Source of the DNA: a virus
Lineage: Duplodnaviria; Caudoviricetes
Length of the DNA: 50,811 nucleotides
Strand: one strand, 5' to 3'
IMG/VR virus record: IMGVR_UViG_3300037485_001666
Span: 1-50,811 of that record
Part shown: in pieces, positions 1,299 to 43,680 of the stretch
Layout: every line of letters starts with the position of its first letter
How positions within the stretch are numbered: position 1 is the stretch's first letter
The notes under the pieces: generated by a model
Databases searched by the model: none
Told to the model about the DNA's origin: nothing
Seen by the model: only the letters and a program-made list of their open reading frames with translations
Position numbers and translations under genes: made by a program

Positions 1299-3158
1299 AT
1301 GACAAGGATTCCAGTAGCCAATGACCGACGTGTGGATTCTTGGCGAAATGCAACCACCATGGATTTTACTCTGCGAAAGGAATCCTTTCTCGGCACAGAG
1401 ACCAAAATCAACTTCATCGTCACCATAGAGCTTTCAAATTCAAATGACACCCTATACTTTGCTGATAAACCTCTTTACATAGACGGCGTCTACTACGAGT
1501 CCAGATTGAAGATTCCGGAAATCAAGAACCAGTTGTCCGATTTGTTGGAGCCGTCGATTGAAGCGTCAGAAGTTACGCTGACCCTAGATAACTCAGACGG
1601 ATTCTACAACGATTATCTCGTAGGTGGAACCAAGTACACGTCCTTTGTGGGTAGCATCGTCAAAGTTTACTATGGTGTTGGCGATGTTCTTTCCACTGGC
1701 TACATCCGTGTCTTTTGGGGACAGGTGCATCAAGAGGGTGCCGTCACCAGGAACGTAAAGACCCTCACCGTGCGAGCGCGAGACGTGTTGTCCATCTACG
1801 TTGGAACGAAACTCACACCCGAAATAATCCTAACGGACGTTGGCATTCCAGCCGTTGACATCAAGCTGACAGAGAAGAAGACCTGGCCCTACATGATTGG
1901 CGACTGGAGCGTAGACAGGAACGCAGACACGACGTTCCCTGATTCCAGCAACGGCAACACAAACAACGTGCGACAGGTAAGCGTCGTTGAAGGCTTCGAG
2001 GGTGTTTACCTGGGAACGTACAATTTCGACGGCCAGGGGGCTGTGGGCGAGAATGGGGTGTCGTTTTCGGGAACCCTGCACGTCGTTGCTGTTTGTAATG
2101 CCGTTGCATCGACACACCACATGCACCTTGTCACGGACGGCGAAGGAACGGCCAAGCTACGGCCACACAATTTTGTCGTCCAGGATGACAGGCTCATTTC
2201 CATTGGCAACGACATGTACGACTTCTGGACAGGTCCAGATACAACGGGTGTTCTCAAGTATTATGTGTTCGATACGTCATGGCAGAGTGCTCTTGCTGAA
2301 GTTCAATATGAGTGGAAGTCGGGTGACAAGTTTCTGTTCCTGACCTACCCAGCAGATGATGCAGACGTCTGCACCTATGACGATCCAGTGTCTGCTGCAA
2401 AGATTCTCATGAAGACCTTTGCCAATCTTGACGATGCAGCCTTCGATGGGTTCTCATGGTCTGAATACACGACTGCCGCGCAAAGATTCCGGTGGGGATA
2501 TTTCGAGTCAGAGGCTAAGCCACTCATTGAAATAGCTCTGAGTTTTCTCAAGCAACACCGTCTTGACATGTTCCTAACCAAGGACGTGACGTTCAAGCTG
2601 ACGTCTCTCAAGACAGAAGTTCTTCCAACGGTTGCTGTTATTCGCCAAGTCGAGAATCTCGACATCGATGAAGACTCGGTTCAACTAGAGACTCTCCGCA
2701 AGGAGCACATGAATTATGCCCAAGGTAAATACAACTTCCTGCCGTTCTATCGACAGACTATTGACTCAACTCCAGTGCGCACGAACTATCAGTCCCTCAA
2801 CCGTGCCTTCATTAGCGTAGGCAAATTGATCGATATGCCCAACCATTCAGACCTGACTATTGTTCAGGAGCATATCGACGAGTGGTTGAGGCTCCTTGGT
2901 GCAGGGCTTGAGTTTGTAGACATGAAGGTCAGCTACAAACATATCGACATCGAGCCTGGAGAGTTCATCTCAGTGACATTCTCGCCAGGGTTCCATGTGT
3001 TTGACAATGCTCCCATGCAGGTCAGAAGCGTGTCGATTGACCCTCAGTCAGCCTTCATTGAGATTCGTTGCTTGGGTCTAGCCAATTACGCGTGGACGGC
3101 CTACGAACCTGCGAACGTTGCCTTGCTCCTTTCCACATCAAGCGCGGGGATATCCTGA
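1299..3158 (+). CDS. Putative tail-tip hub (Tal-like) protein
   Basis: 619 aa in tail-module synteny. LTLDNSDG, VKVYYG and IEPGEFISV motifs typical of hub proteins. Confidence 0.6.
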   Translation: MTRIPVANDRRVDSWRNATTMDFTLRKESFLGTETKINFIVTIELSNSNDTLYFADKPLYIDGVYYESRLKIPEIKNQLSDLLEPSIEASEVTLTLDNSDGFYNDYLVGGTKYTSFVGSIVKVYYGVGDVLSTGYIRVFWGQVHQEGAVTRNVKTLTVRARDVLSIYVGTKLTPEIILTDVGIPAVDIKLTEKKTWPYMIGDWSVDRNADTTFPDSSNGNTNNVRQVSVVEGFEGVYLGTYNFDGQGAVGENGVSFSGTLHVVAVCNAVASTHHMHLVTDGEGTAKLRPHNFVVQDDRLISIGNDMYDFWTGPDTTGVLKYYVFDTSWQSALAEVQYEWKSGDKFLFLTYPADDADVCTYDDPVSAAKILMKTFANLDDAAFDGFSWSEYTTAAQRFRWGYFESEAKPLIEIALSFLKQHRLDMFLTKDVTFKLTSLKTEVLPTVAVIRQVENLDIDEDSVQLETLRKEHMNYAQGKYNFLPFYRQTIDSTPVRTNYQSLNRAFISVGKLIDMPNHSDLTIVQEHIDEWLRLLGAGLEFVDMKVSYKHIDIEPGEFISVTFSPGFHVFDNAPMQVRSVSIDPQSAFIEIRCLGLANYAWTAYEPANVALLLSTSSAGIS

Positions 3159-21120: not shown

Positions 21121-21316
21121 GCGTGACAACGAACTGTTCGAACGGATATTCGGCAACATGTACGTTGGTTGTGCGGGGTGTCTCATCTCTCATTATCAGC
21201 CGAACGGCAAGTGGGGTTGCGCCTTGCGACCTCCACAGAAGCGTCACTGCAAACCCGCAGGTCAAGGCAGACACGAAGATTGTCCATGGATAGCTCATGT
21301 GAAAGGAAGATTTTGA
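21056..21316 (+). CDS. Hypothetical Cys-rich protein
   Basis: CAGGAG SD; CAGC...C...C...HEDCPW. Confidence 0.55.
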   Translation: MPEDAEITRLTLRINHLQAKLERDNELFERIFGNMYVGCAGCLISHYQPNGKWGCALRPPQKRHCKPAGQGRHEDCPWIAHVKGRF

Positions 21317-21579
21317 TGCACCCTAGTAATAAGATCACCCGTGAGAATCTGAAAGATGTTGTCTACTGGCACAGTCCAAAGCCAGAACAAGTACGAGGAA
21401 TGGAAAGGATAGCCGAGTCATGTGAGATACTCATGCACGCTATTCTGATTTCGTGTCCAGATTGTGCAGACAGAAGCGCAGCTTTGCGATGTGCTCGTGA
21501 GGCAAGGATGTGGGCGAACGCCGCAATCGTTCTTGACCCTGAGCATCACAATCCAATCGACCACACGAGAGGTGTGTGA
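21316..21579 (+). CDS. Acb2/Tad1-like cyclic-nucleotide sponge (anti-defence protein)
   Basis: YWHSPKPEQ...CPDCADRSAALRCAREARMWANAAI matches the family pattern YHxP...CP.SRE.S.A...EA.MWANAAI. Confidence 0.72.
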   Translation: MHPSNKITRENLKDVVYWHSPKPEQVRGMERIAESCEILMHAILISCPDCADRSAALRCAREARMWANAAIVLDPEHHNPIDHTRGV

Positions 21580-22680: not shown

Positions 22681-23157
22681 ATGAGAATCTACAAAGGCCA
22701 GGTCTTCCGAGAAGGACAGCATTTCATCTCAACCATCTCGAAGATAGCTGGTCGAGTTTGGACTGTCGCCAAGGTTCGTTTCACGGACGCCAACGGATGG
22801 CTCTACGTTCGTCCAATCATCGTCATGCAGCGCACCACTGGACAGCTTCTCATGCTCAACTGCATGGGAGCAGAGAAGGTCGTTGTTCCACCTGCGATGG
22901 TCAAAAGAAAACCAACGCCTAAACCACGACCTGGAAGCATCTATCGCCCAAGCTCTGTCTGTGCGTCGCCTCATTGCCTTTGTGTGTTGAGAGTCGTCTC
23001 TCGGGATTTGGTCGAAGTCATCGCCGTCCATTTAGATGAAGACGTTTGGATGAGAGTTGAGAATGCACGAAAGAGGCCGATGTCCATTCATCGTCTTCAC
23101 TGGAGATACAAGCCACACGCTACCGACATCAATCTGATAGGAGACAACCCATGTTGA
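22681..23157 (+). CDS. Hypothetical protein
   Basis: AAAGGA SD before ATG 22681; overlaps the queD start. Confidence 0.55.
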   Translation: MRIYKGQVFREGQHFISTISKIAGRVWTVAKVRFTDANGWLYVRPIIVMQRTTGQLLMLNCMGAEKVVVPPAMVKRKPTPKPRPGSIYRPSSVCASPHCLCVLRVVSRDLVEVIAVHLDEDVWMRVENARKRPMSIHRLHWRYKPHATDINLIGDNPC

Positions 23158-23579
23158 GAGTATCGAAGAAGTTCCATTTCTGTGCTGCCCATCGCCTCAT
23201 TGGACACAAAGGATTGTGCAAGAACCTCCACGGCCATCGCTACGAGTTGCAGGTATTCTGCGAAGCCGACGAGCCAGACGACGTTGGGTGCACTGTCGAT
23301 TTTGGTGAACTCAAAGACACTGTAGGCGAATGGATCGATGCTCATCTTGACCATGCTACAATGGTGTTCGATGAAGATACAGAACTGCTGGAATTCTGTA
23401 TGCGAACTGGCTCAAAGAGATTCTATTTTAGCGCCAACACGACCGTGGAAAACATGATTCAAAAAATCTACGTCAGGATGCAATCTGAATTGCTCAACCA
23501 ACGTTGGCGTCTGGTCGGTATGAAAATGTGGGAAAGTCCGAACAACTGCGTGACCTATACGGGTCCCAAAGGAGAATAA
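23151..23579 (+). CDS. queD: 6-carboxy-5,6,7,8-tetrahydropterin synthase
   Basis: FHFCAAHRL, CKNLHGHRY, VDFGELK, LDH, TTVENM, WESPNN. Confidence 0.95.
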   Translation: MLRVSKKFHFCAAHRLIGHKGLCKNLHGHRYELQVFCEADEPDDVGCTVDFGELKDTVGEWIDAHLDHATMVFDEDTELLEFCMRTGSKRFYFSANTTVENMIQKIYVRMQSELLNQRWRLVGMKMWESPNNCVTYTGPKGE

Positions 23580-23582
23580 GCT

Positions 23583-24356
23583 ATGTGGCAGGTGTCAGAA
23601 ATTTTCCGGAGTATTCAGGGTGAGGGCATTCGAACGGGCCGCGCTACGACGTTCCTGCGCCTTGCAGGGTGCAACCTGCGATGCTCCTGGCGGTGCGACA
23701 AAAGGGGACCGGGGGGGCGAATCATTCCCACCTACATCTCCTGCGACACCGAACACGCTCAGAACGCAATCCACGTCCCACGGCCCGTTCCCGATTCTCA
23801 GAGCCTCGCACAGTGGCTGGGAAGCATCGTCAAACCCATGGATGACATCGTGGTCACTGGGGGCGAGCCGACCATGCAATCCATCGACTCGTTCCTGGAA
23901 GACAACGACCTCCGCAGGATCCTGACCAACCATCACTGCACCCTGGAAACGAACGGCACAGCCGCCGTCAAGGTCCCGTGGGCGAAGCTCCTGAGCATCT
24001 CCCCAAAGGTCACAGCCGATGGAACGGACGGCCGCATGATGGCCATGTGGGCATCGGAGACGGCCCAGCTCATCACAGAAAATCCCGGCTCGCAGGTCCA
24101 GCTCAAGTTCGTTCTGGGCAACGTCGGAGATATCGACATCATCACCTCGTTCCTGCAGGACGTTTACAACCAGATGTCCTATGCAAGCAACTCTGAGATT
24201 CTGGTCATGCTCATGCCGGTGTCGGTTAATCCGTCCTATTTCGACCAACTGTCGCGTGACATTGTAGACAACATTGTGCTCCAGAACTCAGGCATTGATT
24301 TCAGATTGTGCGACCGCCTGCACTATCGACTCTGGAAAGGGGAGCAGGGAAAATGA
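23583..24356 (+). CDS. queE: 7-carboxy-7-deazaguanine synthase (radical SAM)
   Basis: EIFRSIQGEG..TG, FLRLAGCNLRC...CDT, VVTGGEP, LETNGT, SISPK, LKFV, RLH. Confidence 0.95.
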   Translation: MWQVSEIFRSIQGEGIRTGRATTFLRLAGCNLRCSWRCDKRGPGGRIIPTYISCDTEHAQNAIHVPRPVPDSQSLAQWLGSIVKPMDDIVVTGGEPTMQSIDSFLEDNDLRRILTNHHCTLETNGTAAVKVPWAKLLSISPKVTADGTDGRMMAMWASETAQLITENPGSQVQLKFVLGNVGDIDIITSFLQDVYNQMSYASNSEILVMLMPVSVNPSYFDQLSRDIVDNIVLQNSGIDFRLCDRLHYRLWKGEQGK

Positions 24357-24901
24357 TGTTCCACACAGCCAAATACCTGCGCCGTCTTTTTGAGGAGTAC
24401 GGAGAAAACCCAGAACGGGAAGGACTCGTCGATACCCCAAACCGAGTTCTCAGGGCCTGGCGCGAAATCTTGAAAGGATACAAAAGTGAACCAAGGAACA
24501 TCCTCAGCGCCACCTTTCAAAGCTCAGCAGCAGGCATTGTCTGTTGTAAAGAAATCGAGTTCTACTCAACTTGTGAGCATCACTTGCTCCCGTTCTTTGG
24601 ACGCGCTCACATCGCATACATACCTGACGGAAAAGTCGTCGGTGTGTCGAAACTCGTCCGACTCGTCGAGTGCTATGCACAGCGACTGCAAATCCAGGAA
24701 GAAATAACGGAGCGTGTCTCGTCGGATTTGATGACCTATCTTCAACCTCGTGGCTGTATGGTCGTCGTCGAAGCGCAGCATCTGTGCATGAAAGCACGCG
24801 GCGTCAAGAACCACAGCTCCGTCATGGTCACGAGTTCAATCCGTGGATGTTTCGATGACCACGCCATTCGCATGGAAACCCTCAAACTGTTCGGGATGTG
24901 A
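24353..24901 (+). CDS. folE: GTP cyclohydrolase I
   Basis: REGLVDTPNRV, CEHHLLPFFG, GVSKLVR, RLQIQE, AQHLCMKARGV. Confidence 0.97.
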   Translation: MMFHTAKYLRRLFEEYGENPEREGLVDTPNRVLRAWREILKGYKSEPRNILSATFQSSAAGIVCCKEIEFYSTCEHHLLPFFGRAHIAYIPDGKVVGVSKLVRLVECYAQRLQIQEEITERVSSDLMTYLQPRGCMVVVEAQHLCMKARGVKNHSSVMVTSSIRGCFDDHAIRMETLKLFGM

Positions 24902-24904
24902 CAC

Positions 24905-26299
24905 ATGAGAAGAAGACGCGCAGTGATCGTTGTTCCCGTCGCCAAAGAACGTATCAACACCCCCATGAGCTTCGCCCCGTTCGGCATGTATGCCATGCTG
25001 GACATGAAAGGTATCGATGTTCACTTTGAGTTCGTGCGATACGAGGACGATGTTGAGGAACGAGTTTGGTCAAAGATGATCGACTACGACGAACTCTATG
25101 TGAGCATCACCAATCCTGACCAAGAATGGATCATCGAGTTTTGTCAGAAAGAGATTGCAGCACACAACAAGATGCTTGAGAAATTCATCACACCTCACTG
25201 GTGCGAGCCTCAGTTCTTTGGACTCAAAGACTACATTCCCGACGACTGCCTGACCGCTTCGGACGACTGGATACAGGGAATGTTTCGCATTCATCTCTAC
25301 TACCAAACCTTCAAACGTTATCGCGCCTACAACGGGGAACTCGACCATCATTTCTGTACCGTGTCCAATCGAACGGTCGTTCCAGTGTTCACGTCCTGGG
25401 GTTGCAAGAACAGATGTCCTTTCTGTTACAACTCATCTGAGAAGAGATATGAGTACGTTGAGTGCTCACTCGACGACCTCGAAACCATGGCTCACATGAT
25501 GGACCACGAGAATATCTCATTCCATTTCATGGACGAGGATTTGTGCAAGCATTCAAAACTCAAACTCATCCTTGAGATGTGTAAGGATAGTCAGAGTATC
25601 TGTCTGTCCAGCATCGAAGCTTATCTCCATCTTCACTACTCAAGACAAGAGCAGTTCAACAAAGCCTTTTTCTGTATTGAAGTGGGTGTCGAAGACCTGG
25701 ACGAAAAGATTTCAGGAAAGAAGCAGAACGTGCAAGGGTTCGCTTCGCAGATTATGGAAGACGGACCATACCCCTACTTTCTCACCCAGACGTTCCTTCC
25801 AGGACAGACGGTCGGTTCCCTGTATCGACTCGGAAAGGCACTCAGGGACTCCATCGGAGCGTCCTACATGGGCATGATTCAACCTCGCGGTCGATGCAAC
25901 GGTCACGCAAACTGCATCGGTCAGATGTTCAATCCCATCAAGGGAACAACCTACTGGAAGAAGATTGAAGCCAAGGAGCCGGGCTATGAAGGCCGCTGGC
26001 TTGAACGTCCAGGCACGAGAATGAGTCCGTCCTGGGTTCCTCAGTCGTTCATTGATAGCGTCAAGAAGTCACGCTTCGTCATGAGTAACTACCTCGCATT
26101 CAAGCGTGACCTGTTCGCCGGCTTGTGGGCATGGCACAGAATTAGCGCCAATGATGCTGAGTTCATCATCGAACGAATTCAGTTGTCGGCTTGGGATTTC
26201 ATGTCTCTCGAACCTTGCCTGTCGCATCTGCTAAAGAAAGAAGCCGTGGTTGCTGCGATGCTTGCGCGGTTCGGTGCGCTCCAGGAGGCACTGAAATGA
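24905..26299 (+). CDS. Radical SAM protein of unknown function
   Basis: TSWGCKNRCPFC (CxxxCxxC), FHFMDED, IEVGVE, FLPGQT; about 150 aa N-terminal extension. Confidence 0.85.
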   Translation: MRRRRAVIVVPVAKERINTPMSFAPFGMYAMLDMKGIDVHFEFVRYEDDVEERVWSKMIDYDELYVSITNPDQEWIIEFCQKEIAAHNKMLEKFITPHWCEPQFFGLKDYIPDDCLTASDDWIQGMFRIHLYYQTFKRYRAYNGELDHHFCTVSNRTVVPVFTSWGCKNRCPFCYNSSEKRYEYVECSLDDLETMAHMMDHENISFHFMDEDLCKHSKLKLILEMCKDSQSICLSSIEAYLHLHYSRQEQFNKAFFCIEVGVEDLDEKISGKKQNVQGFASQIMEDGPYPYFLTQTFLPGQTVGSLYRLGKALRDSIGASYMGMIQPRGRCNGHANCIGQMFNPIKGTTYWKKIEAKEPGYEGRWLERPGTRMSPSWVPQSFIDSVKKSRFVMSNYLAFKRDLFAGLWAWHRISANDAEFIIERIQLSAWDFMSLEPCLSHLLKKEAVVAAMLARFGALQEALK

Positions 26300-27342
26300 A
26301 GACCAAAGTCCTGCTTGTTCCATCAACCAACGACGACTCACGCCCGCAGTGGCACATGCTAAACGAGATCAAGAGCTACTCGTTCCCAAGCATGTGTCGT
26401 CTGCCTTTTGTGGAGAATCCACTCGACCAGAAATTCCACACCCAAAGGCACTGCGAGTCGTTCTTCCACAAGACTGAACTCATCGTCGGCTGGTCCGATA
26501 TGGTTCGGCCAATCATCGAAACTGTGCTCAAAGAGATTCGAGACAAGGGAAGCAACGTCACCGTGTTTTGGATGGACGGATTTACCCCAGCCATTTTCTC
26601 AGTCAAGTCCATTCTCGACGCTATGAACGTCTCACGGGAACGTGTCAAACACGTCTGCTTTTTCCACGGCTCGCCTAACATTCCAGAAGACTCATTCATG
26701 CACGCTAAGTATCTTCAGGTGCTCGATTTCCACATCTGGAGTCAATACGACCAGATATTCATCGCCCGAGAATATCTCAAGAAGTACTTGCCCGATGCAC
26801 CAAAGAAGGTCTGTCTTGACTGGCTTCCACTCGACAGAAAGCTGTTCAATCAGACGCCGCTCATGCCAGACGATCGCGATCCGGTCGTGGTCTTTCCTCA
26901 CAGATGGTGCTACACAAAAGCCAGATATGACTTCATTAGACAGTGTCTTGAAAACAAACGTCGTGGCCTCATTCTGACACCCGTCCCAATCCCAAAGGCC
27001 CAGATTTGGAATGGCACCAAAACTCAATGCGACAAGATTTTCAAGCTGGTCGAAATCCGCTTGTGCACCAGGGAAACCTACCTCGCTTCGCTGGCCAGAT
27101 CGAAATGGATATTCAATGAGAGCGAGTACGAGACGTTCGGAATTGCGACTGTCGAAGGCATGGCACTCGGCTGTGAGCTTCTACCTCTTCCTGACTGCAA
27201 AGTGAAATTGGTTCCCGAGGCTGTTACACTGCTACACGAGGAACGACTAGACATCGAAACAGCACAGGTCAGGCAACGAAAATGCCTCAAGCTCATCGGT
27301 GATTCAGTTCGCGACCTCTGGGGGTATCACGGACATGGCTAA
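26296..27342 (+). CDS. Glycosyltransferase (GT-B fold, GT4-like)
   Basis: VVVFPHRW..K and ETFGIATVEGMALGC (ExFG-x4-E signature); CAGGAGG SD; ATGA coupling. Confidence 0.82.
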   Translation: MKTKVLLVPSTNDDSRPQWHMLNEIKSYSFPSMCRLPFVENPLDQKFHTQRHCESFFHKTELIVGWSDMVRPIIETVLKEIRDKGSNVTVFWMDGFTPAIFSVKSILDAMNVSRERVKHVCFFHGSPNIPEDSFMHAKYLQVLDFHIWSQYDQIFIAREYLKKYLPDAPKKVCLDWLPLDRKLFNQTPLMPDDRDPVVVFPHRWCYTKARYDFIRQCLENKRRGLILTPVPIPKAQIWNGTKTQCDKIFKLVEIRLCTRETYLASLARSKWIFNESEYETFGIATVEGMALGCELLPLPDCKVKLVPEAVTLLHEERLDIETAQVRQRKCLKLIGDSVRDLWGYHGHG

Positions 27343-27919
27343 GAAAAAGGCACACGCGAAGTTCGAGATTGAGACGTTTCCATTGGTCATGTTGTCCAAG
27401 TACGAACGTAATCCACGCTACAACGAGATGGCCGTCGATGCGGTCATGAAAAGCATTGAGAAGTTCGGCTTCAACAATCCCATCCTCGTCAATAAAGAAA
27501 TGACAATCCTCGCTGGACACACCAGATATGAAGCATGCAAGCGCCTCGGCTACACGGAGGTTCCCTGTATTGTTCTGGACCATCTCACACCTCAGGAACA
27601 GAAAGCGTTCCTCATCGCGGACAACAAGACGTCCGAGCTTGCCGGCTGGAATGAGTCGATGCTCTCGGAGCTGTTCAACGAACTCAAGCTCGATGATTTT
27701 GATTTGGAGTTTACGGCATTTTCAAAGACGGAAATTGACGTCCTTGCCGGTGGGTTCAACTACGAAAACATCGAGCCGTCCGACCGCAAGTCAAAGAACA
27801 AGGGAACCACCGCTACCCTGAAACTGACACTGCCGGTTGAACGACTCCCAACCTTCAAGGCCAGTCTCGAAAATTGGCTTCAGGAGAACAAGCATGAGTA
27901 CGTGGCCGTTAGCCAGTGA
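27335..27919 (+). CDS. ParB/sulfiredoxin-like N-terminal domain protein
   Basis: YERNPR, SIEKFGFNNPILV, ILAGHTRYEA, FLIADNKTSELAGWN. Confidence 0.9.
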   Translation: MAKKKAHAKFEIETFPLVMLSKYERNPRYNEMAVDAVMKSIEKFGFNNPILVNKEMTILAGHTRYEACKRLGYTEVPCIVLDHLTPQEQKAFLIADNKTSELAGWNESMLSELFNELKLDDFDLEFTAFSKTEIDVLAGGFNYENIEPSDRKSKNKGTTATLKLTLPVERLPTFKASLENWLQENKHEYVAVSQ

Positions 27920-28850
27920 CGACTCATACTGCATGAACATTCTCTTGTCCTATGTGTACTTCCCCCGAAACGGGCGCGCGGCACAGAGGCTGCTCCAGGT
28001 TCTGGCCGAAATGCACCCAGGCGGATATCGGCTCCTCATTGACTCGGGCGCGTTCTCGGCTGCGAACTCCGGGAAGATTGTGTCGCTGGACGAGTACAAC
28101 GCTTTCCTCAAGAAGCTGCCACGCGACCTGAACTACCGCGCCATCCAGCTCGACGTGGTCAACGATCCACAGGCCTCTTTCGAGAACTACCTGCGACAAC
28201 GGGACGCCGGGGTCAACGTCGTGCCGGTCTGGCAGAAAGGGGCCTCCCTGGAGCAACTGGAAAAGCTCTACTCGGTGACCGACTATGTGATGCTCGCAGG
28301 GGGCCGGGTCGACAGAACCTACCTGCTCGAAGCTCACAAGCTCATTGGCGACCGGAAGGTGCACTGGCTCGGGAACACCCACATGCGCTGCATCTACGAG
28401 GGGAAGCCCTGGTCGTGCGACTCGGTGACGTGGCTGAACTCCGGCCGGTTCGGATCCGTTCCCATCTTCTCGGCCAGGTCTGATTTCGACCAGTGGTGGA
28501 TCCGGAAAGACCCCGGAGCGGTCGGGAAGGTCGCCGACTGTCTGCGCGACTGCGGAATCTCGATCAAGGAATCCTTCGATATCCTCAACTGGAAGGTGAC
28601 CCAAATCTCCGGATTGGAGGGTCGTCTCGAACTCCATCGCTTCGTGGGTCGCCTCGTGTGGGCCTACAAAGCCAACTTCATTTTCCGCAGACTGAACACT
28701 CGAGTCTTTTTGGCAATCGCTGGATATCACGACCTTCTCAGTTTCATTCTTGCAAACCAAGCCCTACTTCGAAGAGGAGTCATTCAAGATGACGATTTCA
28801 AGCAACGATTCTCAAGACAGATGCGTCATTCTTTTTTCAGGCGGGATTGA
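27894..28850 (+). CDS. dpdA: DpdA-like DNA guanine transglycosylase (TGT-fold)
   Basis: LLIDSGAFSA, QLDVV, VVPVWQ, KVHWLG, SCDSVTW motifs; embedded in the que operon. Alternative start at 27933. Confidence 0.78.
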   Translation: MSTWPLASDDSYCMNILLSYVYFPRNGRAAQRLLQVLAEMHPGGYRLLIDSGAFSAANSGKIVSLDEYNAFLKKLPRDLNYRAIQLDVVNDPQASFENYLRQRDAGVNVVPVWQKGASLEQLEKLYSVTDYVMLAGGRVDRTYLLEAHKLIGDRKVHWLGNTHMRCIYEGKPWSCDSVTWLNSGRFGSVPIFSARSDFDQWWIRKDPGAVGKVADCLRDCGISIKESFDILNWKVTQISGLEGRLELHRFVGRLVWAYKANFIFRRLNTRVFLAIAGYHDLLSFILANQALLRRGVIQDDDFKQRFSRQMRHSFFRRD

Positions 28851-29490
28851 CTCAATCTGCGCAACCATGATTATGCAGGCGAGACATTCAACTCCCACAC
28901 TAATCTTTATGGATTATGGACAGAAGCATTATGTGGCAGAAAAACGGGCGTCCATTCTAACCTCAAAGCTACTCGACATTCCACCGACCGATCTTCACAA
29001 TGTTGGGTTGACGGCCTTCTTCAATGAGAGCAAGGACTGGCTCCTTTCCGAACAAGCACAACGGGACATGAGAATTGGCAGGCATCATTTCTCATTCGTC
29101 CAGGGCCGGAACGCCGCCATGATTCTGAGGGCCGCCATGTTCGCGTCCGTCCGTGGCATCAACAAAGTCGTGATAGGGGCGAATGAGAATGACGTTATCG
29201 GGGGCTTTCCCGATTGCTCCCTGCCATTCCTGGAAGCAATGCAAGTCGTTTTGTCAACCTCTTTCCGGGATCCGATTCAACTTGTTGCGCCTTGTAGGGG
29301 AATGATGAAGACGCAGACGATCGCCTACATCCTCAAGATTGGTGCTCGCGGTGAACAACTTCTTGAGAATTCATGGTCCTGCTACGAGGGGAAGACCACC
29401 CCGTGCGGCTCCTGCGGCTCTTGTGTCGTCCGGCAGAATGCTATTCAGGCTTCTCGAAGCCCTGCAACACTTTTGAATCAAGATCAATGA
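28789..29490 (+). CDS. queC: 7-cyano-7-deazaguanine (preQ0) synthase
   Basis: LFSGGIDS PP-loop, DYGQ, FVQGRN, FPDC, SWSCY...PCGSCGSC; AGGAG SD. Confidence 0.95.
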   Translation: MTISSNDSQDRCVILFSGGIDSICATMIMQARHSTPTLIFMDYGQKHYVAEKRASILTSKLLDIPPTDLHNVGLTAFFNESKDWLLSEQAQRDMRIGRHHFSFVQGRNAAMILRAAMFASVRGINKVVIGANENDVIGGFPDCSLPFLEAMQVVLSTSFRDPIQLVAPCRGMMKTQTIAYILKIGARGEQLLENSWSCYEGKTTPCGSCGSCVVRQNAIQASRSPATLLNQDQ

Positions 29491-41436: not shown

Positions 41437-41477
41437 GTCCATCATTCCTTTAGTCCAATGGGTTAACGAACATTGCT

Positions 41478-41503
41478 GCCTCCGCTTCCTGTGGAGGCTT
41501 TTT
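41478..41503 (+). terminator. Second terminator-like hairpin
   Basis: GCCTCC-9 nt-GGAGGC followed by TTTTT. Confidence 0.5.
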
Positions 41504-41691
41504 CACGGAGAGGGTTCTCGTGGATAGACAAGAAAAGGAAGCGCTCATCACGAAGTCGTTTGCCAGTATGGGACTCTGCAACATTCAGTCATTCGAGCAT
41601 CTTGACGAATGGCGCACCCGAGTGGTCGTCCAGTACATGGAATCCGGTTTCTCAATGGTCCACTCAATCATTGTCACAGAAGGAATACCCA

Positions 41692-42336
41692 ATGACAGAA
41701 GATGCAATCTATGGAGCAGACTACCTCGCAAAGTTCAAGCGCCTGGAGTCTATCGAAAGCACCTGGGCACTCAACCGTTGGCGTGCGGAGAAAGCACGGA
41801 TGAGCCTTGTCGATTCAGCGCCTGTGATTATTGACGTTGGGTGCGCGGCGGGAACCTTTATCAAGGCAATGAAAAACAAACTTCCCTGCGCTCGTGTGGT
41901 CGGCATCGACATCAATCCGTTGGCCGTCGCGGAATGTACAGCGGCTTCCATTGAGGCATACACCAACGAGCAGTTTGAATATGTGTGGGAGAATCACTTC
42001 TCGAAGTTCCACTTGTTGATGACCTTCTGGGACAGCCTCGAACACATGAGAGACCCCATCGGGTTTCTCGACAAGTACAAACCCAATCAGATTTGCGTCA
42101 GCTTGCCTTGCCTGGACGGATTTCTCATGCACCATTCCAGCATCGACATCGTGCTGTGGAAACACCACCGACCTTTGGAACACCTGTGGACGTTCACGGC
42201 GTATCAGTTCCAGGAGTTCATGAAACGTGCTGGCTATAAGGTCGACGAAGGCCCTATTTTCGGTGAGAGCTTCTGGCGAAGGGACGACGTACTCGGGGAA
42301 AAAAACATCATGACTTTTATTCTGAGTCGTGTTTGA
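41692..42336 (+). CDS. Class I SAM-dependent methyltransferase
   Basis: IIDVGCAAG, VGIDIN, TFWDSLEHMRDP, WKHHRPLEHLW. Confidence 0.85.
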   Translation: MTEDAIYGADYLAKFKRLESIESTWALNRWRAEKARMSLVDSAPVIIDVGCAAGTFIKAMKNKLPCARVVGIDINPLAVAECTAASIEAYTNEQFEYVWENHFSKFHLLMTFWDSLEHMRDPIGFLDKYKPNQICVSLPCLDGFLMHHSSIDIVLWKHHRPLEHLWTFTAYQFQEFMKRAGYKVDEGPIFGESFWRRDDVLGEKNIMTFILSRV

Positions 42337-42607
42337 TCATGCCTGCCTCGGGTATCTCTGGACCGAACATGTGGTTCACGAAGACGACAGAATCGTAGAC
42401 GGGAATCTGTCTGACAAACCATTCAACGATGCCTAGTTGCTTGATCAATTCCTCTGGCCTTTTCTTGGCCGCTTCCATGTTGGCAAGATGCTCACGTTCT
42501 TTTCGCACCATCAAGAGAAGAACCTTTTGATACCAATTACAGGTGTCGTCGTCGTACACCTTTTTCTTGTCGCCTTCGCCTATCGTAATTTCGCAGTTTG
42601 TTTCCAC
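42317..42607 (-). CDS. Hypothetical protein
   Basis: GGAGG upstream of GTG; follows the GT9 gene on the same strand. Confidence 0.55.
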   Translation of the reverse strand: METNCEITIGEGDKKKVYDDDTCNWYQKVLLLMVRKEREHLANMEAAKKRPEELIKQLGIVEWFVRQIPVYDSVVFVNHMFGPEIPEAGMIKHDSE

Positions 42608-43590
42608 GGTCTCTCAGCCTCCATTTTGATTAGTGCGTTGATGCAAGCCTGCGCCACAACCTTTGCGGACTCAGTTCGGGTGGGTGCGTCTCGGAGGCTT
42701 ATTCGCTCCTCAAGAAGCTTGTTCTGCGTGGGATAGTAGTCATCTTTCGCAGGTACAATAGTTGAGCGATAGTCCTGACTGCCATTCCTGTGTGGCATCC
42801 TAAACTCTGGATTGATCAATGATGCAGCATAGACAATGTGACACCTATTGGAACATCCTGCGATGGGCAAGTGTCCCGTCTCCGTCGTCAGAACGACCTC
42901 ACATTCATCGTAGAGTGCGGCCAATTGATGCAGTGAAGTCATGTTGTATAAGCATAAGTCGTGTGGAATGAGGGATGCAGGGTGGAGACCTTTCTTTTCA
43001 TTCACCTCAAGGACGTCTGTATCCGCTCCGATATCTCTTGGACTGATGTCTCGACCCACGAGAACGACAGCAAACCCAGCCTCACGCACCCGCGCAGCAA
43101 TGGACGCGTACCACTCGACTGGCATGGTCCGGCTCGGCCACCCGATGACCGGAGACATTGCGAGAACAGCACGTCGGGTTTTCCCGTCCCTGCGATGACG
43201 GATGGCATTCAACCGCGCCCTAGCGTGAAAAGATTGAGCTTCTGTCCAGAACAGGTCGAGGGACTTGTCCTTGTTCACGAGCATGGCGCGGAATAGGTTT
43301 GCAGAAATGTAGTCAACCGTGTGCGATTGAGGATGAGACACACCGGCAAGAGAGTTCCCAACCATGAAATGACCCCATGGATAGAACATCGTAGCGATCG
43401 GAATATGGTCAGTATTGCACTTATACATGTTGTCTATGTAGGGATTGTTTAGGAACGGCTCCGCGTTCTTGACCCACATGTCAACTATGTATCCCTTTCT
43501 CTTGAGCATTCGAATGATAGGGGTGTGGTACAAAAGGTCGCCGAAACCAATGAACGTTGTCACGATCAAACACTTCTTCGCTTGCTCCAT
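42580..43590 (-). CDS. Glycosyltransferase family 9-like (heptosyltransferase fold)
   Basis: GFGDLLYHTP, FLNNPYID, WPSRT, TSLHQLAAL, TETGHLPIAG; AAGGAG SD. Confidence 0.82.
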   Translation of the reverse strand: MEQAKKCLIVTTFIGFGDLLYHTPIIRMLKRKGYIVDMWVKNAEPFLNNPYIDNMYKCNTDHIPIATMFYPWGHFMVGNSLAGVSHPQSHTVDYISANLFRAMLVNKDKSLDLFWTEAQSFHARARLNAIRHRRDGKTRRAVLAMSPVIGWPSRTMPVEWYASIAARVREAGFAVVLVGRDISPRDIGADTDVLEVNEKKGLHPASLIPHDLCLYNMTSLHQLAALYDECEVVLTTETGHLPIAGCSNRCHIVYAASLINPEFRMPHRNGSQDYRSTIVPAKDDYYPTQNKLLEERISLRDAPTRTESAKVVAQACINALIKMEAERPWKQTAKLR

Positions 43591-43624
43591 TGAATCTCCT
43601 TCGGACTCGAAACGGCTATGATGG

Positions 43625-43662
43625 AGTGTCGCTTGACGAACGGCGGCTGTCAATCGTACCAT
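43625..43662. promoter_or_regulatory. Overlapping divergent sigma70-like promoters
   Basis: Rightward TTGACG-18 bp-TACCAT; leftward TTGACA-17 bp-GACACT. Confidence 0.6.
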
Positions 43663-43680
43663 CAAGAGAAGGAGACATCG

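What the first reader, a model, noticed from the sequence alone, without database searches (positions are those of the whole stretch)
23151..29490. Extended 7-deazaguanine operon with a second radical SAM enzyme and a glycosyltransferase: candidate pathway to an undescribed DNA base
Seen: eight co-oriented genes that abut or overlap, queD-queE-folE-rSAM-GT-ParB-dpdA-queC. Established: FolE, QueD, QueE and QueC make preQ0, and DpdA-type transglycosylases swap it for guanine in DNA. Known downstream derivatives use QueF (preQ1) or ArcS/Gat-QueC/QueF-like enzymes (G+). I recognised none of those here. Their place is taken by an uncharacterised CxxxCxxC radical SAM protein and a GT-B glycosyltransferase. 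Inference: preQ0 has no obvious sugar acceptor, so the radical SAM enzyme may create a handle that the GT glycosylates, giving a hypermodified deazaguanine.
Basis: partly seen in the sequence, partly recalled or inferred. Interest (0 to 1): 0.9.

Follow-up and report, generated by a model that had tools for sequence, protein, structure and literature searches.

The report
Sugar-tailoring genes in phage deazaguanine operon
An uncultured phage has one tight operon that makes the guanine analogue preQ0 and swaps it into its DNA, and the operon also holds a sugar-transferring enzyme and a radical enzyme that accompany such pathways in many other phages, which predicts a sugar-bearing purine in DNA that has not been described.

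Summary
Eight co-oriented genes at 23151-29490 abut or overlap: queD, queE, folE, radical SAM (rSAM), glycosyltransferase (GT), ParB-like, dpdA, queC.

The window is a complete 50.8-kb virus record.

The rSAM is not an orphan. It is a very divergent member of a family I found only on viral or metagenome contigs. In 69 IMG/VR loci holding this rSAM, my profiles found the same GT family in 64, DpdA in 63 and FolE in 65. DpdL was in 64 and QueC in 3. Thirty-eight further metagenome loci show the same linkage.

The GT is a GT4-type GT-B enzyme. It also sits in deazaguanine clusters of 23 cultured phage records, among them ACP17 and PA5oct-like phages, where I found no rSAM.

So the GT does not need the rSAM to make its acceptor. 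The pair works with either a DpdL or a QueC pathway. I infer that the sugar goes on a position shared by both bases and that the rSAM (best solved match AprD4) tailors it.

This is untested chemistry; I found no paper on it.

This scan has noted the DpdL form of the module before, in at least 59 other genomes. This window is the rarer QueC plus ParB form.

The parts
23151..23579 (+). queD, 6-carboxytetrahydropterin synthase (142 aa)
   Evidence: PF01242 1.1e-30, 106.5 bits; phrog_2389 1.9e-30. The translation holds CKNLHGH, which fits the QueD signature CxxxHGH quoted in PMC10516641. It is not the DpdL form LxxxHRHxF.
23583..24356 (+). queE, 7-carboxy-7-deazaguanine synthase (257 aa, radical SAM)
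   Evidence: phrog_2076 3.6e-31. NCBIfam QueE models match from 1e-17 to 2.8e-11, all below their curated cut-offs. Its cysteine string reads CNLRCSWRC.
24353..24901 (+). folE, GTP cyclohydrolase I
   Evidence: PF01227 5.4e-67; TIGR00063 207.8 bits, above its cut-off of 181.6. The ATG at 24353 has an upstream aggggag string.
24905..26299 (+). Radical SAM enzyme (464 aa) with a class-B-like architecture: an N-terminal Rossmann-like domain followed by a CxxxCxxC core. Very divergent member of a family seen only on viral or metagenome contigs.
   Evidence: - CKNRCPFC at residues 167-174.
- 67 other proteins at E<=0.001 among 1.84 billion representatives.
- The window protein keeps all 13 family-invariant residues: Q73 G106 H149 C167 C171 C174 H207 E259 G261 E263 G339 Q340 R372.
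- The family profile's best solved matches are AprD4 (6fd2, 7e-14) and CysS (9n1b, 1.3e-8).
- The Atlas model's structural neighbours are B12-binding/rSAM proteins, TM 0.64-0.68 over residues 4-438.
26296..27342 (+). GT4-type GT-B glycosyltransferase (348 aa) of a deazaguanine-linked phage family
   Evidence: - Family alignment A3 has invariant H124, D132, R203, K208 and E287, with E279 nearly invariant (E-x7-E).
- 39 of 48 members match PF00534; the window protein itself matches none.
- AlphaFold2 with A3: pLDDT 80.8, pTM 0.83.
- Foldseek top matches are sucrose-phosphate synthase, BshA, PimB' and MshA.
- The best viral match is the GT1-domain protein of Acidovorax phage ACP17.
27335..27919 (+). 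ParB/Srx-like N-terminal-domain protein (194 aa), candidate NTPase helper of DpdA
   Evidence: - PF02195 29.6 bits; phrog_620 6.3e-52.
- PDB sequence matches Noc and ParB, 8.4e-6.
- GHTRYEA at residues 61-67 fits the ParB GxxRxxA nucleotide motif quoted in PMC10164549. G61 and R64 are invariant in the 12-row alignment A6.
- A ParB-like gene lies next to dpdA in 11 of the 69 related loci.
27894..28850 (+). dpdA, DNA-guanine transglycosylase (318 aa; the start may instead be 27933)
   Evidence: - phrog_887 1.2e-19.
- tblastn: 162 phage records, including the annotated DpdA of Pseudomonas phage Iggy (29.9% over 58%, 2e-9).
- The only PDB match of the family profile is 7ui4, DNA-guanine transglycosylase, E 0.055 (weak).
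- Invariant D50, G52, D87, H157, D176, S177.
28789..29490 (+). queC, 7-cyano-7-deazaguanine (preQ0) synthase
   Evidence: PF06508 1.6e-37, 129.5 bits against a cut-off of 22; phrog_1550 5.4e-37.

Best explanation
The eight genes form one DNA-hypermodification operon of a phage.

Established chemistry, inferred here from homology:
- FolE, QueD, QueE and QueC make the free base preQ0 from GTP.
- DpdA exchanges it for guanine in the phage's DNA.

Inferred:
- The ParB-like protein serves DpdA as a nucleotide-driven helper on DNA, as the ParB-like ATPase DpdB does for bacterial DpdA.
- The GT4-type glycosyltransferase puts a sugar from a nucleotide-sugar onto the deazaguanine, either as the free base or in DNA.
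- The sugar goes to a position that preQ0 and 7-deazaguanine share. The exocyclic N2 amine is the one with a precedent.
- The class-B-like radical SAM enzyme acts after the GT and tailors that sugar, by radical dehydration/deoxygenation or C-methylation like its nearest solved relatives AprD4 and CysS.
- The product would be a sugar-bearing 7-deazaguanine in virion DNA, and would protect it from host nucleases.
For: 1. Operon and identities.

2. The rSAM family was found only on viral or metagenome contigs and is locked to the pathway.
- 69 IMG/VR loci hold it. My iterated profiles found FolE in 65, GT in 64, DpdA in 63, QueE in 55 and QueD in 52 of the 69.
- The usual order is queD-queE-folE-dpdL-rSAM-GT-dpdA.
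- Three of the 5 loci without the GT end at the rSAM (L009, L034, L070).
- 38 further non-duplicate metagenome loci gave GT in 32, DpdL in 29 and DpdA in 21; most are short contigs.
- A pattern scan of one genome for each of 185,579 prokaryote species gave 2 contigs. Both are copies of viral contigs already held.

3. The GT is a real GT4/GT-B enzyme.

4. The GT is linked to deazaguanine genes without the rSAM.
- The GT profile hits ACP17 gp124 (1.8e-63), which lies between a DpdA-like gene and DpdL. It hits the GT of Xanthomonas phage PhiXhv-12 (9.5e-40), which lies beside a Gat-QueC fusion and a PIG-L deacetylase.
- tblastn finds the family in 23 cultured phage records. At least 16 of them have a DpdL match within 2 kb.
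- No rSAM was found in the phage collection.

5. Every untruncated rSAM locus has DpdL (64 of 69) or QueC (3; one locus has both). QueC is in 3 of 50 whole records and in 0 of 13 that are at least 90% complete. The tailoring pair therefore serves two different 7-substituents.

6. The rSAM's nearest solved relative by sequence, AprD4, acts on a sugar. 23 of 42 members also match HpnJ and 14 match AprD4 NCBIfam models.

7. Precedent for a GT acting on N2 of a 7-cyano-7-deazapurine: huimycin HuiG (PMC7439116). GTs of that family carry PF13439 (bioRxiv 10.64898/2026.04.15.718813), which 8 of 48 members of the phage GT family also match.

8. ParB.
- The GxxRxxA motif is kept.
- In the DpdA tree a branch with 99% support separates 35 DpdAs without a ParB neighbour from 13, of which 11 have one.
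- DpdB is a ParB-like ATPase needed for insertion by bacterial DpdA (PMC10164549).
Against: - There are no chemical data for this or any related phage. Sugar, acceptor atom, order of steps and substrate (free base or DNA) are all inference.
- The window's rSAM sits on a very long branch (3.98 changes per site; best identity 26%). Alone, it and the GT fall below Pfam thresholds, so their function here may have drifted.
- L036 and L038 carry the rSAM without this GT. A papain-like gene sits in its place in L038. The rSAM can therefore exist without this GT.
- Cellulophaga phage phiST replaces all its G by plain dDG with FolE, QueD, QueE, DpdL and DpdA3 and has neither extra gene (PMC10516641). 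The extras are not needed for insertion.
- No nucleotide-sugar synthesis gene lies in the operon.
- No member matches the Pfam B12-binding domain (0 of 42), so use of cobalamin is open.
- A bulky group on N2 would sit in the minor groove and touch base pairing.
- The 69 loci are not independent. A crude filter on shared 4-residue words left 49 different rSAMs.
Confidence: 0.5

Rival explanations
1. The radical SAM enzyme first installs a handle on the deazaguanine (for example a hydroxylated or alkylated carbon), and the GT then glycosylates that handle.
For: - The two genes are adjacent and overlap by 4 nt here. They are neighbours in most related loci.
- Class-B-like rSAM enzymes can functionalise unactivated carbons; family members match PhpK, CysS and TsrM-type methylases.
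Against: - The same GT family sits in deazaguanine clusters of 23 cultured phage records. No rSAM homologue was found there, so the GT has an acceptor without the rSAM.
- A handle on the C7 side chain cannot be common to the DpdL and QueC forms.
- N2 glycosylation of a preQ0 derivative needs no handle (PMC7439116).
Confidence: 0.15
2. The DNA carries only dPreQ0. The rSAM and the GT act elsewhere, for example on a soluble deazapurine glycoside (huimycin-like), a virion protein or a host glycan. They are linked to the que genes only by shared regulation or shared precursors.
For: - GT4 enzymes mostly serve glycan and small-molecule pathways.
- The window has a second methyltransferase-containing island in the virion module.
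- Huimycin shows that glycosylated preQ0 derivatives exist as free metabolites.
Against: - The position between folE/dpdL and dpdA is kept in 64 of 69 loci, and again in 32 of 38 further loci, across very divergent phages.
- The GT is adjacent to a DpdA-like gene in ACP17 and PA5oct.
- That is a tighter linkage than shared regulation would explain.
- PA5oct DNA resists enzymes whose sites hold G (PMC12191111). This shows a modified G, not which one.
Confidence: 0.15
3. Two independent decorations of the base. The rSAM alkylates the pyrrole ring (for example at C8, as TsrM methylates C2 of an indole) and the GT separately glycosylates another atom.
For: - The family profile weakly matches TsrM (6wte, 0.0015) and CysS (1.3e-8).
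- 28 of 42 members match the PhpK methylase model.
- L036 and L038 hold the rSAM without the GT.
Against: - The best solved match is the sugar dehydratase AprD4 (7e-14).
- No member matches the Pfam B12-binding domain (0 of 42). Known class-B methylases need cobalamin (my recollection).
- The rSAM has the GT beside it in 64 of the 66 loci where that position can be seen.
Confidence: 0.1

Closest known systems
Phage preQ0/DpdA DNA modification (for example Pseudomonas phage Iggy, Escherichia phage CAjan; Hutinet 2019 PMC6884629, abstract and listing only; PMC10484667, abstract and listing only)
   Same: FolE, QueD, QueE and QueC plus a DpdA transglycosylase in one phage gene block. The window's DpdA gives tblastn matches to the annotated DpdA of Iggy.
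   Different: Three extra genes sit inside the operon: a class-B-like rSAM, a GT4 glycosyltransferase and a ParB-like protein. The word glycosyltransferase occurs 0 times in the main texts of PMC6884629, PMC10484667 and the bioRxiv copy of PMC10516641 (listing). 'glycosyl' occurs 0 times in PMC10516641.
DpdL-type dDG system of Cellulophaga phage phiST (FolE, QueD, QueE, DpdL, DpdA3; Cui, Hutinet et al. 2023, PMC10516641, passages read)
   Same: Most relatives of this window's rSAM-GT module (64 of 69 loci) carry DpdL and lack QueC, like phiST.
   Different: The window has QueC and no DpdL. phiST has neither the rSAM nor the GT. My DpdA profile does not match phiST's DpdA3 gene at E<=0.01.
Bacterial Dpd modification module DpdA-DpdB (Salmonella Montevideo; PMC10164549, passages read)
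   Same: A TGT-like DNA transglycosylase is encoded next to a ParB-superfamily protein that keeps a nucleotide-binding motif. DpdA's only PDB match is 7ui4.
   Different: The window's ParB-like protein is a 194-aa single domain with GxxRxxA. DpdB has a DGQQR motif and an added C-terminal helical domain. No DpdC or restriction genes are present. PADLOC gave only a match to the ParB-like N-terminus of a type II methyltransferase model.
Huimycin and dapiramicin tailoring (HuiG; PMC7439116; bioRxiv 10.64898/2026.04.15.718813; passages read)
   Same: A glycosyltransferase encoded beside folE, queD, queE and queC puts a sugar on a 7-cyano-7-deazapurine, at the 2-amino group. GTs of that family carry the GT4 N-terminal domain PF13439.
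   Different: That is an actinomycete metabolite pathway without DpdA, and its product is a free compound, not DNA. I could not compare the sequences because HuiG was not available to me.
AprD4 (PDB 6fd2) and other class-B-like radical SAM enzymes that tailor sugars (HpnJ)
   Same: An N-terminal Rossmann-like domain plus a CxxxCxxC radical SAM core. AprD4 is the best solved sequence match of the family profile (7e-14). 23 of 42 members match HpnJ and 14 match AprD4 NCBIfam models.
   Different: The matches cover about 170 residues of the core only and lie far below the family cut-offs. The substrate is unknown. This family was found only on viral or metagenome contigs.

Membership tests
Phage 7-deazaguanine (preQ0) DNA modification system | Complete preQ0 pathway: FolE, QueD, QueE and QueC | tested here: met
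   PF01227 225 bits; PF01242 106.5 bits; phrog_2076 3.6e-31; PF06508 129.5 bits. QueE lies below the NCBIfam equivalog cut-offs.
Phage 7-deazaguanine (preQ0) DNA modification system | A DpdA (TGT-like) DNA transglycosylase | tested here: met
   phrog_887 1.2e-19. tblastn to annotated DpdA genes. The profile's only PDB match is 7ui4, at a weak E of 0.055. No Pfam or NCBIfam match. I did not assign a subfamily (DpdA1 to DpdA4, bDpdA).
Phage 7-deazaguanine (preQ0) DNA modification system | The modified base is present in virion DNA | not testable with these tools
   Needs mass spectrometry of DNA. The phage is uncultured.
DpdL-type dDG system | A DpdL (QueD paralogue with LxxxHRHxF) and no QueC | tested here: not met
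   The DpdL profile has no match in the window, even at E<=1. QueC is present. The window's QueD has CKNLHGH.
Bacterial DpdA-DpdB pair | A ParB-superfamily NTPase partner with its nucleotide motif, next to dpdA | tested here: inconclusive
   The ParB N-domain with GHTRYEA (GxxRxxA) is adjacent to and overlaps dpdA. DpdB's DGQQR motif and C-terminal domain are not seen. No direct comparison with a DpdB sequence was possible.
Radical SAM superfamily, class B (B12-binding) type | CxxxCxxC cluster motif and radical SAM core | tested here: met
   C167, C171 and C174 are invariant. PF04055 matches 42 of 42 family members at E<=0.01, but the window protein scores only 18.4 bits against a cut-off of 29.5.
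Radical SAM superfamily, class B (B12-binding) type | N-terminal cobalamin-binding domain | tested here: inconclusive
   PF02310 matches 0 of 42 members. The Atlas model's structural neighbours over residues 4-438 are B12-binding/rSAM proteins, TM 0.64-0.68. My own single-sequence model failed, pLDDT 33.
GT4-type GT-B glycosyltransferases | Two-Rossmann-domain GT-B fold | tested here: met
   AlphaFold2 model pLDDT 80.8, pTM 0.83. The listed Foldseek PDB matches are almost all glycosyltransferases (sucrose-phosphate synthase, BshA, PimB', MshA and others), E from 1.3e-8, TM about 0.5-0.58.
GT4-type GT-B glycosyltransferases | C-terminal donor-binding motifs (R/K pair and E-x7-E) and a Pfam Glycos_transf_1 match | tested here: met
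   R203, K208 and E287 are invariant and E279 is nearly invariant. That these are the donor-site motifs is my recollection of GT4 enzymes. PF00534 matches 39 of 48 members. The window protein itself matches no Pfam family.

The most novel reading that the evidence does not exclude
Phages make a sugar-bearing purine in DNA. A GT4 enzyme that travels with DpdA glycosylates 7-deazaguanines whatever their C7 substituent (H in DpdL phages, CN here, formamidino next to Gat-QueC), probably at N2. A virus-specific AprD4-like radical SAM enzyme then deoxygenates or methylates that sugar. This would be the first glycosylated purine in any genome. It would be testable at once in cultured carriers of the GT (ACP17, PA5oct-like phages, Phosso, BUCT-ZZ01).
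Probability: 0.4. Interest if true: 0.9.

Novelty: new variant of a known kind. Interest (0 to 1): 0.78.

Why it matters
The sugar-bearing DNA bases I know of are all pyrimidines: glucosyl- and arabinosyl-hydroxymethylcytosine and base J (my recollection). A glycosylated 7-deazaguanine would be a new class of natural DNA base.

It would bring two enzyme types new to DNA modification: a GT that accepts a deazapurine, and a radical SAM enzyme that tailors a sugar attached to DNA or to a base.

It bears on how phages escape restriction, CRISPR and modification-dependent nucleases. It may also explain two open results. Heterologous DpdL plus DpdA from ACP17 gave no dDG (PMC10516641). PA5oct has a modified G of unknown structure (PMC12191111).

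The window adds one specific point: the pair also works with a QueC (preQ0) pathway and a ParB-coupled DpdA. That narrows where the sugar can sit.

Tried and rejected
Searches that led nowhere:
- The word-index homologue search with the rSAM returned only itself. The single-protein scan of viral contigs found nothing. Only the exhaustive HMMER search found the family.
- The GT's word-index search gave one relative, P0003, at 42% identity. Its contig could not be fetched. Scans with alignment A1 of viral and metagenome contigs found nothing.
- AlphaFold2 on the rSAM alone failed, pLDDT 33. I made no fold search with it.
- No close relative of the window was found. Best rSAM identity is 31% over a segment. 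The 619-aa product of 1299-3155 has no match in 50,697 phage records. There are no tRNA genes. The host is unknown.
- The promoter and terminator scan was no better than shuffles.

Complex prediction, DpdA plus ParB: the tool gave no verdict. I draw nothing from it.

Readings considered and rejected:
- The rSAM as a second QueE. It matches no QueE model, and a true QueE is present.
- ACP17 gp123 as a hidden rSAM. hhalign probability 0.3. Its translation holds a DSGG string like the DSGA of the DpdA family.
- QueF hidden in the genome. The only match lies inside folE.

Literature searches for prior description found no paper that links a glycosyltransferase or a second radical SAM enzyme to DpdA systems or reports a glycosylated deazaguanine in DNA. 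The library lacks most subscription journals.

Full report
**What is there.** The window is a whole IMG/VR virus record of 50,811 bases, which CheckV rates complete. Between 23151 and 29490 lie eight + strand genes. They are separated by 3 nt or overlap by 4 to about 62 nt. Seven of the eight starts are preceded by purine-rich ribosome-binding strings.

Profile searches name six of the genes with confidence:
- QueD: PF01242, 106.5 bits, with the string CKNLHGH.
- QueE: phrog_2076, 3.6e-31.
- FolE: PF01227, 225 bits.
- A ParB N-domain protein: PF02195, 29.6 bits; phrog_620, 6e-52.
- DpdA: phrog_887, 1.2e-19, plus tblastn matches to 162 phage records, including the annotated DpdA of phage Iggy.
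- QueC: PF06508, 129.5 bits.

The other two genes are weak on their own. The 464-aa protein has CKNRCPFC and a sub-threshold PF04055 match. The 348-aa protein has only a 3.5e-4 match to a PHROG glycosyltransferase. The only QueF-model match in the genome lies inside folE.

**The radical SAM protein is not an orphan.** A word-index search found only itself. An exhaustive HMMER search of 1.84 billion representatives found 67 other proteins at E<=0.001, most of them 400-490 aa.

I aligned 41 of these with the query (A2). Thirteen residues are invariant, including the three cysteines, and the window protein keeps them all.
- All 42 rows match PF04055; none matches the B12-binding domain PF02310.
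- 28 of 42 match the PhpK model, 23 HpnJ and 14 AprD4 in NCBIfam.
- The profile's best solved matches are AprD4 (6fd2, 7e-14) and CysS (9n1b, 1.3e-8).
- The ESM Atlas model of the protein aligns over residues 4-438 with B12-binding/rSAM proteins, TM 0.64-0.68. The top three feature-space clusters shown are 100% viral.

It is therefore a class-B-like radical SAM enzyme whose use of cobalamin is open.

A scan of IMG/VR with A2 gave 69 loci. I translated all frames and iterated profiles that started from the eight window proteins. The counts out of 69 were FolE 65, GT 64, DpdA 63, QueE 55, QueD 52, ParB 12 and QueC 3.
- The usual order is queD-queE-folE-(a gene of about 120 aa)-rSAM-GT-dpdA, followed by replication genes.
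- Of the five loci without the GT, three end at the rSAM (L009, L034, L070). Two (L036, L038) truly lack it; L038 has a papain-like gene in its place.
- The loci are not independent. A crude filter on shared 4-residue words left 49 different rSAMs.
- A second scan, of metagenome contigs, gave 78 loci. With the 2 MAG contigs that made 80 analysed, of which 38 are not copies of the first set. Among those 38, GT was found in 32, DpdL in 29, FolE in 23, DpdA in 21, ParB in 4 and QueC in 0. Most misses are contigs of 1-2 kb.
- A pattern scan of one genome for each of 185,579 prokaryote species returned two MAG contigs. Both are copies of viral contigs already held.

**The small gene is DpdL, and the window is the exception.** The 120-aa gene carries the string HRHIF. 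It matches CGPG_00067 of Cellulophaga phage phiST (1e-12) and gp125 of Acidovorax phage ACP17 (6e-11). Cui, Hutinet et al. named this family DpdL, the proposed CDG decarboxylase, with the motif LxxxHRHxF. phiST DNA has all its G replaced by dDG (PMC10516641, passages read).

With a DpdL profile, 64 of the 69 loci have it. Of the five that do not, two have QueC (L003, L069) and three begin at or just before the rSAM. L038 has both. QueC (PF06508) is found in 3 of the 50 whole records I gave the search, and in 0 of the 13 that are at least 90% complete.

The window has QueC and no DpdL. The rSAM-GT pair thus serves pathways that end in 7-deazaguanine and, more rarely, pathways that end in preQ0.

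**The glycosyltransferase.** I aligned 46 of the 64 family members with the window protein and P0003 (A3).
- H124, D132, R203, K208 and E287 are invariant, and E279 nearly so.
- 39 of 48 rows match PF00534 and 8 match PF13439. The window protein itself matches none.
- AlphaFold2 with A3 gave pLDDT 80.8 and pTM 0.83.
- Foldseek's best solved matches are GT4-type GT-B enzymes: sucrose-phosphate synthase, BshA, PimB' and MshA.
- The best viral match is a GT1-domain protein of ACP17.

**The GT travels with deazaguanine genes even without the rSAM.** The GT profile matches ACP17 gp124 at 1.8e-63. That gene lies between gp123 and DpdL gp125, in a block with queD, folE and queE. The gp123 translation holds a DSGG string like the DSGA of the DpdA family, and gp123 is not an rSAM by hhalign.

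The profile also matches the GT of Xanthomonas phage PhiXhv-12 at 9.5e-40. That GT is flanked by a 521-aa Gat-QueC-like fusion (my QueC profile, 5.8e-43, residues 292-510), a PIG-L deacetylase and a GFO/IDH-type oxidoreductase.

tblastn with ACP17 gp124 finds 23 cultured phage records: ACP17, Phosso, eleven PA5oct-like phages, BUDD, X1, BCSR5, BUCT-ZZ01 and five PhiXhv/Ep phages. In at least 16 of them a DpdL match lies within 2 kb.

Two rSAM queries found nothing in the 50,697 phage records. The A2 profile found nothing in the whole genomes of ACP17, PhiXhv-12, phiST and MA9V-3.

The GT therefore has its substrate without the rSAM, while the rSAM nearly always has the GT beside it.

**Where the sugar could go.** The same pair is combined with DpdL, QueC or Gat-QueC, so the acceptor is unlikely to be the C7 side chain. 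Positions common to all three bases are N2, O6/N1 and C8.

N2 has a precedent. In huimycin, GlcNAc sits on the 2-amino group of a 7-cyano-7-deazapurine, and the GT HuiG, encoded beside folE/queD/queE/queC homologues, is proposed to attach it (PMC7439116). GTs of that family carry the GT4 domain PF13439 (bioRxiv 10.64898/2026.04.15.718813).

This is an analogy, not a test. I could not compare the sequences.

**ParB and DpdA.** The ParB-like protein keeps GHTRYEA, which fits the ParB nucleotide motif GxxRxxA. G61 and R64 are invariant among 12 relatives. Its solved sequence relatives are Noc and ParB.

In bacteria the ParB-like ATPase DpdB is required for DpdA to insert preQ0. The two did not form a complex on size-exclusion chromatography (PMC10164549).

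For the DpdA tree I used 47 of the 63 homologues plus the window; duplicates and lengths outside 250-450 aa were dropped. One branch with 99% SH-aLRT support separates 35 DpdAs without a ParB neighbour from 13, of which 11 have one. The window falls in the group of 13, on a long branch. Relatives share labels, so this shows a ParB-coupled DpdA type, not co-evolution.

The DpdA profile's only PDB match is 7ui4, DNA-guanine transglycosylase, at a weak E of 0.055.

**How it most likely works.**
- Established for the families, and inferred here from homology: GTP is converted to preQ0 by FolE, QueD, QueE and QueC, and DpdA exchanges preQ0 for guanine in DNA.
- Inferred from context: the ParB-like protein helps DpdA on DNA, the GT adds a sugar to the deazaguanine, and the rSAM tailors that sugar.
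- Unknown: the sugar, the atom, and whether the GT acts before or after insertion.

**Weak points.**
- There is no chemistry for any carrier.
- The window's rSAM is the most divergent member, with a branch of 3.98 and 26% best identity. That tree used 59 different sequences of at least 300 aa plus the window, in quick mode because the careful search did not finish.
- Two loci carry the rSAM without the GT.
- The operon holds no nucleotide-sugar genes.

**Novelty.** Six searches of the held literature found no paper that links a GT or a second rSAM to DpdA systems or reports a glycosylated deazaguanine in DNA.

PA5oct is reported only to resist enzymes whose sites hold G and to carry que genes (PMC12191111). 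Cui et al. note that DpdL plus DpdA of ACP17 gave no dDG in E. coli and that other enzymes may be needed.

Earlier notes of this scan describe the DpdL form of the same module in at least 59 other genomes and one preQ0 form with several GTs. My counts were made independently and agree with them. This window is the QueC plus ParB form.

**Verdict.** I class it as a new variant of a known kind. It makes a concrete prediction that can be tested in cultured phages.

Noticed in passing
window 21316-21576 (+): An 87-aa protein just upstream of the operon matches the Acb2/Tad1 hairpin domain (PF24729, 6.7e-9, 36.3 bits against a cut-off of 27).
   Followed up: partly
window 41473-42336 (+) and 42580-43665 (-): The 287-aa product is a class I SAM methyltransferase (PF13489, 3.7e-11). 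I did not test whether either acts on the DNA-linked sugar.
   Followed up: partly
L001 (Xanthomonas phage PhiXhv-12, record 115047-131922): The same GT family lies in a larger block: a Leu/Phe-tRNA protein transferase, a 545-aa double GNAT/FemAB-like protein, a Gat-QueC fusion, a PIG-L deacetylase, the GT and a GFO/IDH oxidoreductase. This suggests an amino-sugar-bearing, perhaps aminoacylated, archaeosine-type base in jumbo Xanthomonas phages.
   Followed up: partly
L003 4731-5069; L005 1165-1863; L038 3650-4459: Relatives closest to the window carry further accessory genes inside the module. L003 has a phosphoribosyltransferase-domain protein (PF00156, 6e-12) between queC and ParB. L005 has a Methyltransf_24 protein (2.3e-21) between queE and folE. 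L038 has a papain-like protein (PF00112, 8.4e-7) where the GT usually sits.
   Followed up: no
L057, L062, L064, L068, L069, L071 (rSAM genes of about 310-320 aa): One deep clade of the rSAM family lacks the N-terminal Rossmann-like domain. It is separated from the rest by a branch with 100% support and length 3.39. So the core alone can be the functional unit, or the domain is encoded apart.
   Followed up: no
window 23583-24356 (queE): The cluster-binding string of this QueE reads CNLRCSWRC, that is C-x3-C-x3-C as printed, not the usual C-x3-C-x2-C spacing. All NCBIfam QueE models score far below their cut-offs.
   Followed up: no
L065 5156-7321: One rSAM homologue is 722 aa within one open frame.
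   Followed up: no
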